A DNA stretch of 64,000 bases from Candidatus Ryanbacteria bacterium RIFCSPHIGHO2_02_FULL_45_17b (GTDB taxonomy: Bacteria > Patescibacteriota > Minisyncoccia > Ryanbacterales > 2-02-FULL-48-12). Made by a program: the position numbers and the translations under genes. A model generated the notes under the pieces. That model did no database searches. It worked only from the letters and a program-made list of their open reading frames with translations, and was not told where the DNA came from. The DNA lies in the NCBI GenBank assembly GCA_001819815.1, contig MHNO01000009.1, positions 71,734-135,733 on the forward strand, read 5' to 3'. Positions 1,566 through 47,749 of this stretch are shown piece by piece (the stretch's first letter is position 1; every line of letters starts with the position of its first letter).

Positions 1566-1771
1566 GAATTACGAAACACACCCTCATCCGATGACCGCCA
1601 CACGAATTGATAATGAGTTGAACAAGATGTGTAACGTCTTGCGATGACCAAAATATGAAAAATAATAATAAAGAATTCAATATTGGGTCATCGCAAGACG
1701 TTATATTGTACTTGTGTATGCAAATTGATGGGAGGTCATCAGATGAGAGGAATACATGTGTTTCGTAATTC
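1566..1771. mobile_element. MITE-like inverted-repeat element, copy 1 (full length, with an internal 17-bp-stem hairpin)
   Basis: Terminal inverted repeats GAATTACGAAACACACCCTCATCCGATGACC ... GGTCATCAGATGAGAGGAATACATGTGTTTCGTAATTC. Internal perfect hairpin AACGTCTTGCGATGACC / GGTCATCGCAAGACGTT. Related copies lie at ~48700 and ~27116. The track ORF 1552..1773 lies inside it. Confidence 0.55.
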
Positions 1772-6950: not shown

Positions 6951-7061
6951 GGAATTATGTGCAAGTAAAATTCTGAAACATGCAGGGGAAAAGTCCTCGG
7001 TTCTCCTTCGCTTCGCTCGGCCAGACTTTTCTCGTGCATGTTTCAAAATTTTCACATAGGC

Positions 7062-18306: not shown

Positions 18307-18861
18307 ATGTCTCCTCAAAACTCAAAAAAAATTGTTACCAACCCAAACCCCGTTCTTCATAAACGGGCACTTGAGGTACCTATTGTTGAAATTACTTCCA
18401 AAAAAATCCAGCATATACTTGCGGATATGACGACGGCACTCCGCGGCACATCAGAAGGCATTGGCATTGCCGCGCCCCAAATCGGACATAGTTTGCAAAT
18501 CTTTCTTGCATCCGAAGAAGCCCTCCGGTGGGATGAGCTTGAAGACATGCCACGTGAAGATCGAAAGAAAAAACAATGGACGTATTATACATTTATAAAC
18601 CCTATCATAAGAAAAGCTTCAAAAAAGAAAACATCTGAAACAGAAGGATGTTTGAGCGTGCCTAAAACATATGGCACCGTGGAACGGTCAGAAAAAATTA
18701 CCGTAGAAGCGTATGATGAAACAGGTAAAAAGTTCCAGCGGGGCACCTCAAAATTATATGCCCGCGTCATGCAGCACGAAATAGATCACCTCAATGGCAT
18801 TTTGTTTATTGAAAAAGCAAAGAATATTAAGAACATACACGCTATAAAACCTGAAATATGA
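18307..18861 (+). CDS. def: peptide deformylase
   Basis: The three PDF motifs: GIGIAAPQIG, EGCLSVP, HEIDHLNG. Confidence 0.9.
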   Translation: MSPQNSKKIVTNPNPVLHKRALEVPIVEITSKKIQHILADMTTALRGTSEGIGIAAPQIGHSLQIFLASEEALRWDELEDMPREDRKKKQWTYYTFINPIIRKASKKKTSETEGCLSVPKTYGTVERSEKITVEAYDETGKKFQRGTSKLYARVMQHEIDHLNGILFIEKAKNIKNIHAIKPEI

Positions 18862-19847
18862 AGATAATCTTTTTCGGCACCCCTGATTTTGCTGTTACCA
18901 TTTTGAAAGCGTTGATAGACGCGCATATGTCGCCTATCGCGGTAGTAACAACTCCCGATAAACCCGCCGGACGCGGACATATCATTACAAGTCCGCCCGT
19001 AAAAACATTTGTAGAAAAATATACCATTCCTGTATTTCAACCAGAAAAACTCAAAGACGAAACTTTCTTGCATACATTGCAAAATCTCAACGCGGATGTC
19101 TTTGTTATCGCGTCTTATGGAAAAATTCTTCCCCAAAATCTTCTTGATATCCCACTCAAAGGAACTATAAATGTCCATCCATCACTGCTTCCGCGCCACC
19201 GCGGCCCATCACCCATCCAGAGCGCAATTCTCGCCGGAGATAGCACAACAGGCATAACGCTCATGCTCACAGACAAAGAGATGGATCATGGACCCATCAT
19301 TGCAACCTGTAGTTGGCACATTGCAGATAGCAATAGTACCTACGCCCAACTTCACGACAAGCTTGCTGAACTTGGTGGAGATTTGCTTGTAAAGACTTTA
19401 CCGAGATGGATTGCAGGAGAAATCACACCTCAAGAGCAACATCATCCGGAAGCAACCTATACAAAACTTCTTACAAAAGAAGACGGACACATTGATTGGA
19501 CTAAATCAGCAAAAGAAATAGACCGCATGGTGCGTGCTCTAAATCCATGGCCCGGCACTTGGTCTACACTTTCGGAGGCGAAACCTCCGATTTTTTCAAA
19601 AATCGGAGGTTTCGCCTCCGAAAGTGTTAAGCGGGTAAAAATTCTTGCCGGACATCCACTGGATGAAAAATCAACCGTGCCAGCCGGTACTATTCTCAAA
19701 ACAAAAAGCGGCCACCTTGCCGCTTGTACTAAAAATGGTCTCTATATGATCGAGATGTTGCAAGTGGAAGGAAAGAAAGCAACTCTTGGCACAAACCTCC
19801 TTAATGAACTGTCTCATTCTCAACAGGCACATCCACGCCTCTTGTAA
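18858..19847 (+). CDS. fmt: methionyl-tRNA formyltransferase (carries a 17-codon in-frame palindromic insertion)
   Basis: Formyl-transferase N-terminal domain (SLLPRHRGPSPIQ) and C-terminal domain. Overlaps def by 4 nt. Confidence 0.9.
   Translation: MKIIFFGTPDFAVTILKALIDAHMSPIAVVTTPDKPAGRGHIITSPPVKTFVEKYTIPVFQPEKLKDETFLHTLQNLNADVFVIASYGKILPQNLLDIPLKGTINVHPSLLPRHRGPSPIQSAILAGDSTTGITLMLTDKEMDHGPIIATCSWHIADSNSTYAQLHDKLAELGGDLLVKTLPRWIAGEITPQEQHHPEATYTKLLTKEDGHIDWTKSAKEIDRMVRALNPWPGTWSTLSEAKPPIFSKIGGFASESVKRVKILAGHPLDEKSTVPAGTILKTKSGHLAACTKNGLYMIEMLQVEGKKATLGTNLLNELSHSQQAHPRLL
19572..19622. repeat. 51-bp perfect palindromic element inserted in frame in fmt (copy 1)
   Basis: TCGGAGGCGAAACCTCCGATTTTTT C AAAAATCGGAGGTTTCGCCTCCGAA. 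The arms are reverse complements of each other. The element encodes SEAKPPIFSKIGGFASE. Confidence 0.7.
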
Positions 19848-44337: not shown

Positions 44338-44404
44338 AAAAATCCTCCTTTCCAATTATGTTCTTTTTCATCATAAATCCTCAACAATAAAAAATCCATA
44401 TAAA

Positions 44405-44440
44405 AAACACGCGTGATTACTTCGCGCGTGTTTTTTATAT
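44405..44440. terminator. bidirectional intrinsic terminator-like hairpin
   Basis: ACACGCG...CGCGTGT 7-bp stem flanked by A-run and T-run (AAAAAACACGCGTGATTACTTCGCGCGTGTTTTTTAT). Confidence 0.4.
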
Positions 44441-44441
44441 T

Positions 44442-45221
44442 TTACAGGCTTGGCAATGGTTCTATAAGAACCTTCGCGGTTCCTGCCTTCTGATAACCAA
44501 GAACTTTTGCCGCCTGCTTTGAGAGATCAATTCCTCGTTCGTATTTTTCAAAATTACCACGATCTGTGATACGGAGTTCGATAGACACACCATTTTCGAC
44601 ATTTGTTACGCGAACCTTCATGCCTAACGGCAAATACATATGCGCGGCAACGAGATCGTTTTGGTCGAAAATCTGCGTGTTCGCCATTGCTTTTCCATGA
44701 AATCCCGGACCATACCAGGATGCTTCCACCAACTGCGACTCCCACTCAAGATTATAAAGCGTAAGTTCCGCGCCGGGTTTTAAGTGATAGTCAGGAGACG
44801 TAAGATTATTCCACTCAATAATTTGCTGCGGCTTTATCCACACACCATCACGCTTCATGTCACGGGCAATGGTATGCACCGTATCACCTTCGCGGACTGT
44901 GTATGGAATTTCCCCTGTTACCCGATAATGTTCGCCGAGACCTTTCGGGGAATAATCACGTTGCTCCTCTACGGCTGAAATTACACTTGTAATCTCTTTG
45001 ACAAAGTTATTCACATCCGCCCCACCTTCTCCATTCAGACCACCGCCAAACATAGAGAACAGTGATGAAGCGGTAAAAAACCCTGCCGCAAGGCCTTTTG
45101 AAAGCTTTTCTACGGTTCCTTCCGCATAAGCCATAAAAGCCCTTATAAATAAGTGTTTTTTAGACATAATCGCCAATTTGGGATCAATCCGCAAACTGCC
45201 GGACGAACCTACTCTTGACAA
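44442..45221 (-). CDS. LysM domain + RlpA-like double-psi beta-barrel protein (septal ring lytic transglycosylase RlpA family)
   Basis: LysM segment (YTVREGDTVHTIARDM), then DPBB (SWYGPGFHGKAMANTQIFDQNDLVAAHMYLPLGMKVRVTN...ITDRG). Confidence 0.7.
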   Translation of the reverse strand: MSRVGSSGSLRIDPKLAIMSKKHLFIRAFMAYAEGTVEKLSKGLAAGFFTASSLFSMFGGGLNGEGGADVNNFVKEITSVISAVEEQRDYSPKGLGEHYRVTGEIPYTVREGDTVHTIARDMKRDGVWIKPQQIIEWNNLTSPDYHLKPGAELTLYNLEWESQLVEASWYGPGFHGKAMANTQIFDQNDLVAAHMYLPLGMKVRVTNVENGVSIELRITDRGNFEKYERGIDLSKQAAKVLGYQKAGTAKVLIEPLPSL

Positions 45222-46033: not shown

Positions 46034-47749
46034 ATGAAAAAAAATTCTTGGCTTCTCCCAGTAATACTATTGACCGCTAGTGTACTTCGTTTATGGTCAC
46101 TCGGTAGCGGTGATACGCTTTCCGATGAAGTACTATACTCATTCCGCGCCATCGGCATGCTCGATTTTGATGAAGCGGCAGAACAAACAACGCCCCTTGA
46201 ATGGTTCGACCCACACATACCCTCATGGACAAAATTTTCTTTTCACGACCACCCGCCATTTGTATTTGCCGTACAACATATATCCATGCGCATGTTCGGA
46301 GAAACGCCGTTCGCATTTCGTCTGCCATCGGCACTTTTAGGAATTGCCTCCCTATACTTGCTGTATCGAATAGGATCTTTATTGTATGGAGAACGCGCGG
46401 GACTTCTTGCGGCGGCTCTCATGGGCGTAACAACAAACCATGTCGCAATCTCACGCCTCGGTTTACAGGAATCATACGTAATCTTTTTTATTCTTCTTGC
46501 CACCTATTTTTTTCTAAAAGCCGAAAAACAAAAAAAGTATTATATTCTCGTAGGCATCGTACTGGGATTCGCAATGCTTACTAAATACACGAGCGGAATT
46601 CTTATCCCTGTGTTTCTGACATATATGCTCCTCTTTCGGAGAAATGATTTTTTTTCACGTTTTGTGTACATAGGCGTACTGTGCGCTTTTCTTCTTTTTT
46701 CACCCGTTTTCTATTACAATTTTAGACTCTATCAAGCAGTCGGGCATTTTGATTTCCAACTTTCTTATATACTAGGACAAAACCCGGAAGTGTGGAGTGT
46801 GCAACCCGGCAAAGAAGAGTTTCCCACACTCGTGAGCCGTGCAAGAGCATTCTTTCCAAACATAATGCATTTTAATTCATGGCTCTTCTTGTCTCTTGTC
46901 ACAATCAGTATTGGCGCATGTGTTATTTCTCTCAAAAAGAATATGAAAGAAGTAGCACGAATGCATGCTTTTCTTTTCATAACACTCATCTGGCTTCTTT
47001 TTCTTATCATTGGCATCATTGGTCCCTCTCTGCGATTCTTGGCAATGCTTACACCATTTATGATACTTGTGACAGTCAGTGTATTACAGATACTAGCGGA
47101 GGCGAAACCTCCGAATTATACTTATATTCGGAGGTTTCGCCTCCGATATATTATTGGAATATTACTTCTGTTTGAAATCCTCTACTCTGCCAACTCTCAA
47201 TTGCTTCCGTACCCCAAAGGTCCGGAGTTTTGGGCATGGTCCCCCGTGCGCTATGAAAATTATCATCGGGGGTATGAAGAACTTGATTTGTGGATGCGTA
47301 AACAAACAGATGACCGCATGCCCGCGCTCGCGTTCGAACCTACATATAATTTCATAGGAGAAATCCATAAACAATCACTCGCCACCGACGAACGCGCTGG
47401 TAAAAAACCCCTCTCAACACTTTTTGTATATGATAAAAACATAAACAGCATTGCCCAGCTCTGGATACTGGACCGCCTGCAAGTGTACCATGCCTGGCCC
47501 ATCATACCCGCTGACACCTACATAAAATTTCTAAATGAAAAAGGGGCAGATTATTTTAAAAAAGCTGGATTCGCTGAAATATATTATATCTTTCCGACAG
47601 AAAACGTTCCGTGGAAAAAGGAACAATACCTCACCAACATTGGCATGAAGTTAGAACAAACCTTGACGAAAAGTGGTCTTGTACTATACACTGTACTTGA
47701 AAACAAACGCTCCGAACCCGTGTTTCGAATTTATAAGATGGAGATATAA
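46034..47749 (+). CDS. GT39/ArnT-like polyprenol-phosphate-sugar dependent glycosyltransferase (carries an in-frame palindromic insertion)
   Basis: About 11 TM helices, the conserved DE/DT loop after TM1 (LSDEV), and a C-terminal soluble domain. Adjacent to the GT2 synthase. Confidence 0.8.
   Translation: MKKNSWLLPVILLTASVLRLWSLGSGDTLSDEVLYSFRAIGMLDFDEAAEQTTPLEWFDPHIPSWTKFSFHDHPPFVFAVQHISMRMFGETPFAFRLPSALLGIASLYLLYRIGSLLYGERAGLLAAALMGVTTNHVAISRLGLQESYVIFFILLATYFFLKAEKQKKYYILVGIVLGFAMLTKYTSGILIPVFLTYMLLFRRNDFFSRFVYIGVLCAFLLFSPVFYYNFRLYQAVGHFDFQLSYILGQNPEVWSVQPGKEEFPTLVSRARAFFPNIMHFNSWLFLSLVTISIGACVISLKKNMKEVARMHAFLFITLIWLLFLIIGIIGPSLRFLAMLTPFMILVTVSVLQILAEAKPPNYTYIRRFRLRYIIGILLLFEILYSANSQLLPYPKGPEFWAWSPVRYENYHRGYEELDLWMRKQTDDRMPALAFEPTYNFIGEIHKQSLATDERAGKKPLSTLFVYDKNINSIAQLWILDRLQVYHAWPIIPADTYIKFLNEKGADYFKKAGFAEIYYIFPTENVPWKKEQYLTNIGMKLEQTLTKSGLVLYTVLENKRSEPVFRIYKMEI
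47096..47146. repeat. 51-bp palindromic element inserted in frame in the GT39 gene (copy 2)
   Basis: CGGAGGCGAAACCTCCGAAT TATACTTAT ATTCGGAGGTTTCGCCTCCG has the same arms as the fmt copy with a different centre. It encodes AEAKPPNYTYIRRFRLR. Confidence 0.7.

What the first reader, a model, noticed from the sequence alone, without database searches (positions are those of the whole stretch)
47096..47146. Second copy of the in-frame palindromic element, inside the GT39 glycosyltransferase gene
Same arms as the fmt copy with a different 9-nt centre (TATACTTAT). It inserts AEAKPPNYTYIRRFRLR between predicted TM segments of the transferase. This is an independent insertion event of the same element family. 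The variable centre suggests the element is a foldback whose loop can differ, which argues against simple gene conversion between the two loci.
Basis: seen in the sequence. Interest (0 to 1): 0.6.

Follow-up and report, generated by a model that had tools for sequence, protein, structure and literature searches.

The report
In-frame REP hairpin pair in GT39
The 51-base palindrome inside this membrane glycosyltransferase gene is a translated pair of small REP-like DNA hairpins identical to those flanking the same bacterium's IS200-type (RAYT-like) transposase gene, and it belongs to a large, apparently undescribed family that sits in frame in housekeeping genes of Parcubacteria.

Summary
Window 47094-47148 is a 23-nt-armed inverted repeat with a 9-nt centre, in frame in a GT39/PMT gene. 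It shares an exact 17-nt core, CGGAGGCGAAACCTCCG, with the fmt copy (4 arms found, 0.12 expected).

Each arm is itself a small hairpin, so the element is a REPIN-like doublet. The same 17-mer flanks, and sits inside, a Y1_Tnp (RAYT-like) transposase gene. That protein, P0361 (A2719_01660), shares its locus-tag prefix with genes of the window, so it comes from the source genome, a Candidatus Ryanbacteria MAG. Its best solved-fold match is the E. coli REP-associated transposase 4ER8. Three other RAYT-like genes, fetched by protein similarity, show the same flanked arrangement with their own hairpin types.

A metagenome scan found 78 distinct doublets. Of the 44 inverted ones, 38 (86%) lie open in ORFs of at least 150 aa, including EF-Tu, LigA, LeuRS and enolase genes.

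Every sampled GT39 and fmt ortholog at about 58-76% identity carries a palindrome, or a recognisable remnant of one, at the same codon position, with differing arms (15 of 24 pairs changed on both sides). Distant orthologs lack it. The site is therefore old, while its content matches the other copies in the same genome.

Intragenic REPs and transposase genes flanked by REPs are already published, so this is a new variant of a known kind.

The parts
47094..47148 (.). Whole inverted-repeat element (REPIN-like doublet) in frame in the GT39 gene; encodes AEAKPPNYTYIRRFRLR
   Evidence: (I4): 23-nt arms, 96% complementary, 9-nt centre; folding z-scores of about -9.7; the reading frame stays open.
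47097..47113 (+). Arm 1: 17-nt REP-like hairpin CGGAGG-CGAAA-CCTCCG, read as EAKPP
   Evidence: exact copies at four places in the window; identical to the hairpins flanking RAYT-like genes in L049 and L096.
47114..47128 (+). 15-nt spacer AATTATACTTATATT between the two hairpins; differs in length and sequence between copies
   Evidence: spacers of 1-28 nt across 78 doublets, generally not palindromic.
47129..47145 (+). Arm 2: reverse complement of arm 1 (CGGAGG-TTTCG-CCTCCG), read as RRFRL
46034..47749 (+). Host gene: GT39/PMT-family membrane glycosyltransferase, 571 aa; the element encodes the turn between two consecutive TM helices
   Evidence: PMT_2 7e-33, PMT 2e-13; hydropathy. AlphaFold2 model, mean pLDDT 81.
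19566..19627 (.). Sister copy in frame in fmt: 30-nt arms, 100% complementary, same 17-nt cores (19573-19589 and 19604-19620), 14-nt spacer between the cores; encodes SEAKPPIFSKIGGFASE
   Evidence: I1.. DNA fold -36.9 kcal/mol, z = -13.9.
18858..19847 (+). Host gene of the sister copy: methionyl-tRNA formyltransferase
   Evidence: Formyl_trans_N and Formyl_trans_C. P0121 is 100% identical and named as fmt of a Candidatus Ryanbacteria bacterium RIFCSPHIGHO2_02_FULL MAG.

Best explanation
The element is a pair of inverted 17-nt REP-type hairpins, a REPIN-like doublet. It belongs to a family whose cognate enzyme is a RAYT-like HUH/Y1 (IS200/IS605-superfamily) transposase encoded elsewhere in the same Candidatus Ryanbacteria genome.

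Shown here:
- The same 17-mer flanks, and lies inside, that transposase gene.
- Other Parcubacteria carry the same arrangement with their own hairpin variants.
- Inverted doublets sit open-framed in many housekeeping genes.
- In GT39 the 17 encoded residues form the turn between two TM helices.

Inferred by analogy with E. coli TnpA_REP (4ER8) and IS608 TnpA:
- The enzyme recognises the folded hairpin in single-stranded DNA and cuts and joins next to it, which is how copies spread or are renewed.
- Only insertions that keep the frame, lack stop codons and fall in tolerant loops survive. The CGGARG-N5-CYTCCG stems are stop-free in all six frames.

The GT39 and fmt sites have been occupied since before this clade diversified. 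The sequence in them matches the genome's other copies rather than the orthologous copies. So the content is renewed or homogenised at fixed sites, by re-insertion, by conversion, or by selection for binding; which of these applies is not resolved.
For: 1. Architecture. The arm is itself a 6-bp stem with a 5-nt loop, and two arms are inverted.

2. Link to the source genome. The protein next to GT39 in the window is A2719_03280, and the RAYT-like P0361 is A2719_01660. The first 99 residues of P0361 equal the partial gene on L049. That gene has CGGAGGCGAAACCTCCG 91 nt and 32 nt upstream and once inside. The same contig has an in-frame doublet of the same type in LigA.

3. RAYT-like genes fetched by protein similarity are flanked on both sides and carry one internal copy. 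L096 has the window's type as doublets on both sides, L094 has ACGAGG-CGAAG-CCTCGT, and L095 has ACGAGG-CTAAG-CCTCGT. L031, L014, L043 and L090 are flanked on both sides and L029 has a doublet about 50 nt upstream, each with the contig's own hairpin type; in L001 the doublet lies only inside the gene. About 190 kb chosen without regard to transposases (the window and L002-L011) contain none.

4. Enzyme family. Pfam Y1_Tnp scores 36.5 bits against a cutoff of 23. The PNHxH and YIHLNP motifs are invariant. The best solved-fold match is 4er8_A, the REP-associated tyrosine transposase bound to a REP hairpin (E = 3e-4), followed by the IS608 and ISDra2 TnpA structures.

5. Family size. There are 78 distinct doublets in metagenomes. 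The stem position left free by the search pattern pairs in 78/78 first arms and 75/78 second arms. Both arms share the same variant in 76/78.

6. Intragenic and translated. Of 44 inverted doublets, 38 lie in ORFs of at least 150 aa, against 77.5% for random positions. Hosts include EF-Tu, enolase, LeuRS, LigA, RNase R, TsaD, MiaA, TrmD, GatA, an RF-1-family release factor, TGT and ATP synthase gamma.

7. Old site, concerted content. At the orthologous GT39 site, 15 of 24 long-hairpin pairs changed on both sides, none on one side only, and there is a single G-U.
Against: - No transposase gene lies in the 64-kb window.
- Transposition has not been observed. No empty-site polymorphism or excision intermediate was looked for, and none could be with these tools.
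- The RAYT-like family scores 36-42 bits against NCBIfam REP_Tyr_transpos, whose cutoff is 80. The structure model has only moderate confidence (pLDDT 67).
- The hairpins have no GTAG or CGTC tag.
- Copy density is low, about one per 20-30 kb.
- Spacers differ completely between copies that have identical arms. Simple copy-and-paste of a whole doublet does not explain this.
- Other, unrelated palindromes occupy the same site in some orthologs (L008; peptides in P0005, P0122 and P0133). Site tolerance or targeting is therefore not specific to this family.
Confidence: 0.8

Rival explanations
1. It is a relic palindrome that is no longer mobile. One ancient insertion in the clade ancestor is kept perfectly palindromic only by replication template-switching within the hairpin (quasi-palindrome correction). 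The transposase link would then be historical.
For: The site is shared by all close orthologs. In L004, L006 and L011 the two arms are exact reverse complements of each other although the small hairpin has a mismatch. This fits arm-to-arm copying. There are no one-sided changes and almost no G-U pairs.
Against: In-situ correction cannot explain why unlinked loci of one genome share an identical 17-mer. In the source genome that holds for fmt, GT39, LigA and the transposase flanks; in L002 it holds for two loci. Orthologous loci in genomes of similar divergence carry different 17-mers. Some between-locus process or shared selection is needed.
Confidence: 0.12
2. It is a selected mRNA structure, for example a stabiliser, an internal attenuator or terminator, or a translational pause site that helps membrane insertion between the two TM helices.
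For: The RNA fold is very stable (-39.7 kcal/mol). The simple terminator scan flags the small hairpins followed by T-rich tails on the sense strand of both genes. Published work proposes RNA-level roles for REPs (PMC3733652).
Against: Covariation shows essentially no G-U intermediates, which points to DNA-level complementarity. Elements occur in all three frames and in unrelated cytoplasmic and membrane proteins. The same hairpins flank a transposase gene. Rfam gives no match.
Confidence: 0.06
3. It is a chance palindrome or a conserved protein motif of GT39.
For: None beyond the fact that the segment is translated.
Against: Four exact 17-mers were found against 0.12 expected. The peptide differs by frame between copies. 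Distant GT39 orthologs lack the segment.
Confidence: 0.01

Closest known systems
REP / REPIN elements with RAYT transposases ('REPtrons'), as in E. coli, Pseudomonas and Stenotrophomonas (Nunvar 2010 PMC2817692; Bertels & Rainey 2011 PMC3116915; Di Nocera 2013 PMC3733652)
   Same: Short G+C-rich imperfect palindromes. Inverted doublets that form a larger hairpin. Compensatory changes between the arms. A lineage-specific sequence. The same hairpins flanking a Y1/HUH transposase gene whose nearest solved fold is TnpA_REP (4ER8).
   Different: The core is only 17 nt (about 27 nt with the AC-W-W-T / A-N-W-G-T flanks). There is no GTAG or CGTC tag. The spacers are very short (1-28 nt) and not conserved. 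The inverted doublets lie mostly inside genes and are translated. Density is about one per 20-30 kb rather than hundreds per genome. The transposase family falls below the NCBIfam RAYT cutoff and carries one hairpin in frame inside its own gene.
Rickettsia palindromic elements (RPE) and other intragenic REPs, e.g. in Opitutus terrae (Ogata 2000/2002, from my own knowledge; Di Nocera 2013)
   Same: Palindromic repeats inserted in frame in unrelated housekeeping genes of a small-genome bacterium. They are tolerated as extra loop residues and are shared at orthologous sites between species.
   Different: RPE-1 is about 100-150 bp and has no identified cognate transposase. Here the cognate RAYT-like gene is identifiable, the unit is a 17-nt hairpin, and the lineage is Parcubacteria (CPR). 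No sequence similarity to RPEs was tested, apart from Rfam finding nothing.
Double-hairpin elements (DHE) of Allomyces mitochondrial DNA (Paquin, Laforest & Lang 2000; recalled from memory, not checked here)
   Same: Small mobile elements made of two adjacent hairpins, found in coding regions as well as intergenic ones.
   Different: They are mitochondrial and eukaryotic, have no known transposase, and are unrelated in sequence.
IS200/IS605 subterminal hairpins and the non-autonomous palindrome-associated elements derived from them
   Same: A Y1 HUH enzyme recognises imperfect hairpins in single-stranded DNA, and no target-site duplication is made.
   Different: Here there is no left-end/right-end asymmetry and no tnpB. 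The transposase gene is flanked by the same repeated hairpin that is dispersed through the genome, which is the RAYT pattern rather than the IS pattern.

Membership tests
REP/REPIN | Short (about 20-40 bp) imperfect palindrome able to form a stem-loop | tested here: met
   The 17-nt core has a 6-bp stem and a 5-nt loop, and extends to about 27 nt through partly complementary AC-W-W-T / A-N-W-G-T flanks.
REP/REPIN | Two REPs in inverted orientation that form a larger hairpin (the REPIN) | tested here: met
   (I1, I4); the long hairpin is the minimum-energy fold; 44 of 78 doublets have exactly inverted loops.
REP/REPIN | The same sequence flanks a RAYT (Y1 transposase) gene in the same genome | tested here: met
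   L049 carries the 5' part of the gene for P0361 (A2719_01660), which shares its locus-tag prefix with window genes A2719_03270 and A2719_03280. Two copies lie upstream and one inside. L096 has the same type as doublets on both sides.
REP/REPIN | High copy number (tens to hundreds per genome) | tested here: inconclusive
   There are 2 doublets in the 64-kb window. The 14.8-kb L049 stretch holds 1 in-frame doublet plus 3 hairpins at the transposase gene. One related 70-kb contig holds 3 doublets (L030, L062, L083). The whole genome was not available.
REP/REPIN | Extragenic location | tested here: not met
   Both window copies are in frame inside genes. 38 of 44 inverted doublets lie in ORFs of at least 150 aa. 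Intragenic REPs are a published exception (PMC3733652).
REP superfamilies of Di Nocera 2013 | GTAG or CGTC tetranucleotide at one end | tested here: not met
   The flank consensus from 36 instances is AC-W-W-T | core | A-N-W-G-T, with no GTAG or CGTC.
REP/REPIN | Evidence of mobility (presence/absence polymorphism, excision intermediates) | not testable with these tools
   This needs read-level population data. The only indirect sign is that the copies of one genome share an identical 17-mer at sites whose orthologs carry other types.
RAYT (the associated protein) | Y1_Tnp / HUH fold with an HxH motif and a catalytic Tyr | tested here: met
   Pfam PF01797 at 36.5 bits against a cutoff of 23. 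All 120 listed homologs carry PF01797. H78, H80 and Y138 are invariant or nearly so in A5. The top PDB fold match is 4er8_A, E = 3e-4.
RAYT (the associated protein) | Reaches the NCBIfam NF047646 REP_Tyr_transpos equivalog cutoff | tested here: not met
   It is the best hit but scores only 36-42 bits against a cutoff of 80. A profile search of PDB sequences gave nothing below E = 0.05.
Rickettsia palindromic elements | In-frame insertion in many unrelated protein genes, tolerated as loops | tested here: met
Rickettsia palindromic elements | Homology to RPE consensus sequences; Rickettsiales host; length of about 100-150 bp | tested here: not met
   The element is 51 nt and the host is Parcubacteria. 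Rfam gives no match. No direct comparison with RPE consensus sequences was made.
MITE | Terminal inverted repeats plus a target-site duplication | tested here: not met
   The flanks of the window copies (ATACTAG ... ATATATT and ACACTTT ... AAAGTGT) are inverted, not direct. No duplication is present.

The most novel reading that the evidence does not exclude
Parcubacteria host a RAYT-REPIN system that lives mainly inside the coding sequence of essential genes. Particular loop-coding positions, such as the GT39 TM-TM turn and the fmt C-domain loop, have been occupied continuously since before the clade diversified. Their content is repeatedly overwritten, so that it always matches the genome's current transposase-cognate hairpin. 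This would be homing-like renewal, or protein-driven co-evolution of dozens of translated sites, rather than ordinary insertion and decay.
Probability: 0.35. Interest if true: 0.75.

Novelty: new variant of a known kind. Interest (0 to 1): 0.55.

Why it matters
This finding gives the in-frame palindromes of a candidate-phyla-radiation genome a concrete origin: a cognate RAYT-like transposase. That link has never been available for the classic Rickettsia case.

CPR genomes are small and densely coding. A REP family that persists by being translated in loops of EF-Tu, LigA, enolase, fmt and membrane enzymes shows how selfish or domesticated DNA survives where there is almost no intergenic space.

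It also explains odd low-complexity peptides in CPR protein annotations, such as SEVGLP, RKSDFR, GSPTSE and SEAKPP. The flanking repeats may also contribute to the many RAYT-like genes that sit on very short contigs, although assembly breakage was not tested.

The pattern of an old site with young content gives a testable handle on how REPIN populations are kept homogeneous.

Tried and rejected
- Rfam at gathering thresholds over the whole window: no match.
- tRNA and tmRNA scan: none found.
- tblastn of a RAYT-like protein against the window: nothing. The transposase gene lies elsewhere in the genome.
- Scan of viral contigs with the generic doublet pattern: 0 hits. There is no sign of a phage origin.
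- Scan of GTDB species genomes for the exact doublet: one hit only, on an Omnitrophota SAG contig. The source genome is evidently not in that collection.
- PDB sequence search with the RAYT-like profile: nothing significant. Only fold comparison reached 4ER8.
- Literature searches for in-frame palindromes in CPR, Parcubacteria or Patescibacteria: nothing relevant.
- Protein-motif explanation: rejected, because the same DNA is read in three frames.
- RNA-splicing or mini-intron idea: rejected, because the inverted doublets are consistently open and in frame in long ORFs.
- MITE: rejected, because there is no target-site duplication.
- CRISPR: rejected, because there are no arrays with distinct spacers. 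The tandem arrays on L014 and L022 repeat a nearly identical 28-nt spacer.
Full report
**1. The observation**

Window 47094-47148 is an inverted repeat with 23-nt arms, 96% complementarity and a 9-nt centre, TATACTTAT (I4; sequence). The 17-nt core CGGAGGCGAAACCTCCG occurs four times in the window. Two copies form this element and two form the fmt element at 19566-19627. Shuffles give 0.12 expected, and none of 100 shuffles reaches four.

The element folds far better than shuffled sequence. As DNA it gives -26.2 kcal/mol (z = -9.75) and as RNA -39.7 kcal/mol (z = -9.7). The fmt copy as DNA gives -36.9 kcal/mol (z = -13.9).

It lies in frame in a 571-aa PMT_2/PMT (GT39) ORF and encodes AEAKPPNYTYIRRFRLR, residues 355-371. 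Independent assemblies encode the same proteins (P0001; P0121 on 10 contigs).

**2. Anatomy**

Each arm is itself a hairpin with a 6-bp stem (CGGAGG/CCTCCG) and a 5-nt loop. [quoted passage not shown] The spacer is 15 nt in GT39 and 14 nt in fmt.

Because of that difference, arm 1 is read as EAKPP in both genes, while arm 2 is read as RRFRL in GT39 and GGFAS in fmt.

**3. Position in the protein**

Hydropathy places the insert in a trough between TM-like segments at about 332-354 and 372-391. An AlphaFold2 model (mean pLDDT 81) has helix 333-356, a turn at 357-363 with pLDDT below 50 at 361-363, and helix 364-390.

**4. Orthologs**

The organism is a Candidatus Ryanbacteria MAG from the Parcubacteria/CPR.

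Every GT39 ortholog at about 61-76% identity carries an extra segment at the same position. Orthologs at 56% identity or less have only a short loop there.

DNA of nine syntenic loci shows a doublet-hairpin palindrome at the same codon position in eight of them, with the same frames. The arms differ:

| Locus | Arm (stem-loop-stem) | Note |
|---|---|---|
| window, L002 | CGGAGG-CGAAA-CCTCCG | |
| L004 | CGGAGC-TCCAA-CCTCCG | |
| L005 | CGGAAG-TCCCA-CTTCCG | |
| L006 | CAGAAG-TCCCA-CTTCCG | same as L005 with a mirrored G-to-A change in both arms |
| L007 | CGGAAG-TCGGA-CTTCCG | both arms in the same loop orientation |
| L009 | CGGAGA-TTGGA-TCTCCG | |
| L010 | CGGAAG-TCCAA-CTTCCG | |
| L011 | CGGATG-TTCCA-CCTCCG | |
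| L008 | a different, longer palindrome | |

On an alignment of the arms (A4), the long hairpin is 94.9% paired. Fifteen of 24 pairs changed on both sides, none changed on one side only, and there is a single G-U. No shuffle of 500 reaches these values except for one measure, pair-type diversity (10 of 500), and slid registers collapse. The small hairpins also covary.

In L004, L006 and L011 the two arms are exact reverse complements of each other although the small hairpin has a mismatch.

fmt orthologs show the same pattern at the fmt site:
- SEAKPP..GGFAS in P0132.
- GSPTS..SEVGLP in P0126, P0128, P0139 and P0140.
- Half elements in several others.
- Nothing in distant orthologs.

Occupancy of both sites is therefore older than this genome. 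This corrects the "independent insertion" reading.

**5. What the hairpin is**

The only exact match among GTDB species genomes lies in frame inside a Y1_Tnp (IS200-like) gene.

A generic pattern scan of metagenomes returned 82 loci with 78 distinct doublets. In those doublets:
- The stem position left free by the pattern pairs correctly in 78/78 first arms and 75/78 second arms.
- Both arms carry the same variant in 76/78.
- The second loop is the exact reverse complement of the first in 44/78, and identical to it in 19/78.

A tblastn search with the Y1 protein found homologs in seven of these loci. In L031, L014, L043 and L090 the contig's own hairpin type lies upstream (30-185 nt; none upstream in L031), 7-31 nt after the stop codon, and one to three times inside the gene at one fixed position. 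L029 has a doublet about 50 nt upstream, and the partial gene on L049 is described below. L050 has two homologs with no hairpin nearby.

Three further family members were fetched by protein similarity. All show the flanked-plus-internal arrangement:

| Locus | Source | Hairpin type |
|---|---|---|
| L094 | Nealsonbacteria | ACGAGG-CGAAG-CCTCGT |
| L095 | Wolfebacteria | ACGAGG-CTAAG-CCTCGT |
| L096 | metagenome contig (ERZ27284378) | CGGAGG-CGAAA-CCTCCG, the window's type, as doublets on both sides |

**6. Link to the source genome**

The window proteins flanking GT39 are A2719_03270 and A2719_03280 (also A3J55_00805 and A3J55_00815). The RAYT-like protein P0361 is A2719_01660, from the same locus-tag series.

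The first 99 residues of P0361, including an internal SEAKPP, are identical to the partial gene on L049. That gene has the window's 17-mer 91 nt and 32 nt upstream and once inside. The same contig carries an in-frame doublet of the same type in NAD-dependent DNA ligase.

Within this genome, then, the hairpins at fmt, GT39, LigA and the transposase gene are all the same 17-mer.

**7. The enzyme family**

- Pfam Y1_Tnp is above threshold.
- The NCBIfam best hit is REP-associated tyrosine transposase, but at 36-42 bits against a cutoff of 80.
- The PNHxH and YIHLNP motifs are conserved.
- A structure model (pLDDT 67) has as its best PDB match 4er8_A, the E. coli REP-associated tyrosine transposase bound to a REP hairpin (E = 3e-4, TM 0.58 on the target). 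The IS608, ISDra2 and IS200 TnpA structures follow.
- The family is very large. 7,992 of the 8,000 scored candidates reach E of 1e-10 or better. Sources name them as transposases of Nealsonbacteria, Wolfebacteria, Parcubacteria and Omnitrophota.

**8. Where the doublets sit**

Inverted doublets lie in ORFs of at least 150 aa in 38 of 44 cases, against 77.5% for random 50-nt segments of the same loci. Direct-repeat doublets are almost all outside long ORFs (2 of 19).

Hosts are core genes: EF-Tu, enolase, LeuRS, LigA, RNase R, ATP synthase gamma, GatA, an RF-1-family release factor, TGT, TrmD, XseA, MiaA (twice) and TsaD (twice, at the same site).

All three frames are used, giving SE..[LP]P, R[RK]..[FL]R and G[GS]..[TAS]S[ED]. 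The conserved stems contain no stop codon in any of the six frames.

**9. Mechanism**

Shown: a REP hairpin family, REPIN-like doublets, a cognate RAYT-like gene flanked by the hairpins, and translated intragenic copies in tolerant loops.

Inferred from what is known of TnpA_REP and IS608 TnpA: the HUH/Y1 enzyme recognises the folded hairpin in single-stranded DNA and cuts and joins beside it. Selection then keeps only in-frame, stop-free, loop-located copies.

Unresolved: how the arms stay identical across loci of one genome, while the spacers differ completely and orthologous sites in other genomes carry other types. In-situ hairpin-templated correction explains arm-to-arm identity but not identity between loci. 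The remaining options are re-insertion at a preferred and tolerated nucleotide position, conversion between copies, or selection for binding by the co-evolving protein.

The near absence of G-U pairs argues for complementarity at the DNA level rather than an RNA structure.

**10. Comparison with what is known**

The following are already published:
- REPs, REPINs and RAYT genes flanked by REPs ("REPtrons").
- REPs inside genes, for example in Opitutus terrae and Rickettsia RPE-4 and RPE-6 (PMC3733652).
- REPIN doublets with compensatory changes (PMC3116915).

This family differs in these respects:
- It has no GTAG or CGTC tag. The flank consensus is AC-W-W-T | core | A-N-W-G-T.
- Its core is tiny.
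- Its spacers are short and not conserved.
- Its inverted doublets are mostly intragenic.
- Its enzyme is divergent and carries an internal hairpin in its own gene.
- Its lineage is the CPR.

I found no paper that describes it.

**Verdict.** The feature is real and its nature is explained. It is a new variant of a known kind. The old-site, young-content pattern is the part most worth following up.

Noticed in passing
L001:6491-7252, L031, L014, L043, L090, L094-L096; proteins P0241-P0360: Many members of the RAYT-like family carry one to three copies of their own REP hairpin in frame inside the transposase gene. The position is fixed, between FEFND..PAGKF and LMPNHxH, and encodes peptides such as SEAKPP, SEVGLP or YEVxPRK. 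In the model this region is a low-confidence loop (residues 48-60). It could be an autoregulatory site.
   Followed up: partly
L001:6707-6755 (JBHPHU010000006.1, Candidatus Omnitrophota SAG AM-312-B13): The exact Ryanbacteria-type doublet occurs in a RAYT-like gene on a contig assigned to Omnitrophota. Other family members are also named as Omnitrophota (P0262, P0263). This could reflect horizontal transfer, co-sorted cells in the SAG, or a wider host range. It is unresolved.
   Followed up: partly
Alignment A1 columns about 333-365 (P0006, P0009, P0013); A1 at the GT39 site (P0005); A2 at the fmt site (P0122, P0133); L008:11042-11131: Other, unrelated palindrome-like in-frame insertions occur in the same orthologs. 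PPFEKGGLGG-type segments sit at a second GT39 site. WIPHQVRDD and SVIPGQARNDK-type peptides, and a longer palindrome in L008, sit at the very site studied here. The same loop positions seem to be targets for several repeat families.
   Followed up: partly
L014:1637-1745, L022:13350-13458, L044:206-301: Direct-repeat arrangements of the same hairpins form short tandem arrays. On L014 and L022 the period is 45 nt with a nearly identical 28-nt spacer; on L044 the spacing is irregular. They lie mostly outside long ORFs, and the L014 array sits immediately upstream of a RAYT-like gene.
   Followed up: no
window 1632-1703, 6967-7052, 44398-44440: There are three other inverted repeats unrelated to this family, with 28-nt, 29-nt and 19-nt arms. 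The first is intergenic. The second lies at a gene boundary on the minus strand. The third (AAAAAACACGCG...CGCGTGTTTTTT) lies just downstream of the minus-strand ORF 44442-45221 and looks like a two-way terminator.
   Followed up: partly
window 1-64000: GC skew is negative throughout (-0.05 to -0.20 in 4-kb windows), so the window lies on one replication arm. Both doublets have the CGAAA-loop arm first on the + strand. Two copies are too few to test the strand bias expected of IS200/IS605-type enzymes.
   Followed up: no
one search hit table: Most RAYT-like genes of this family sit on very short contigs of 1-3 kb. The flanking repeated hairpins may break metagenome assemblies there, so MAGs may under-represent them.
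   Followed up: no
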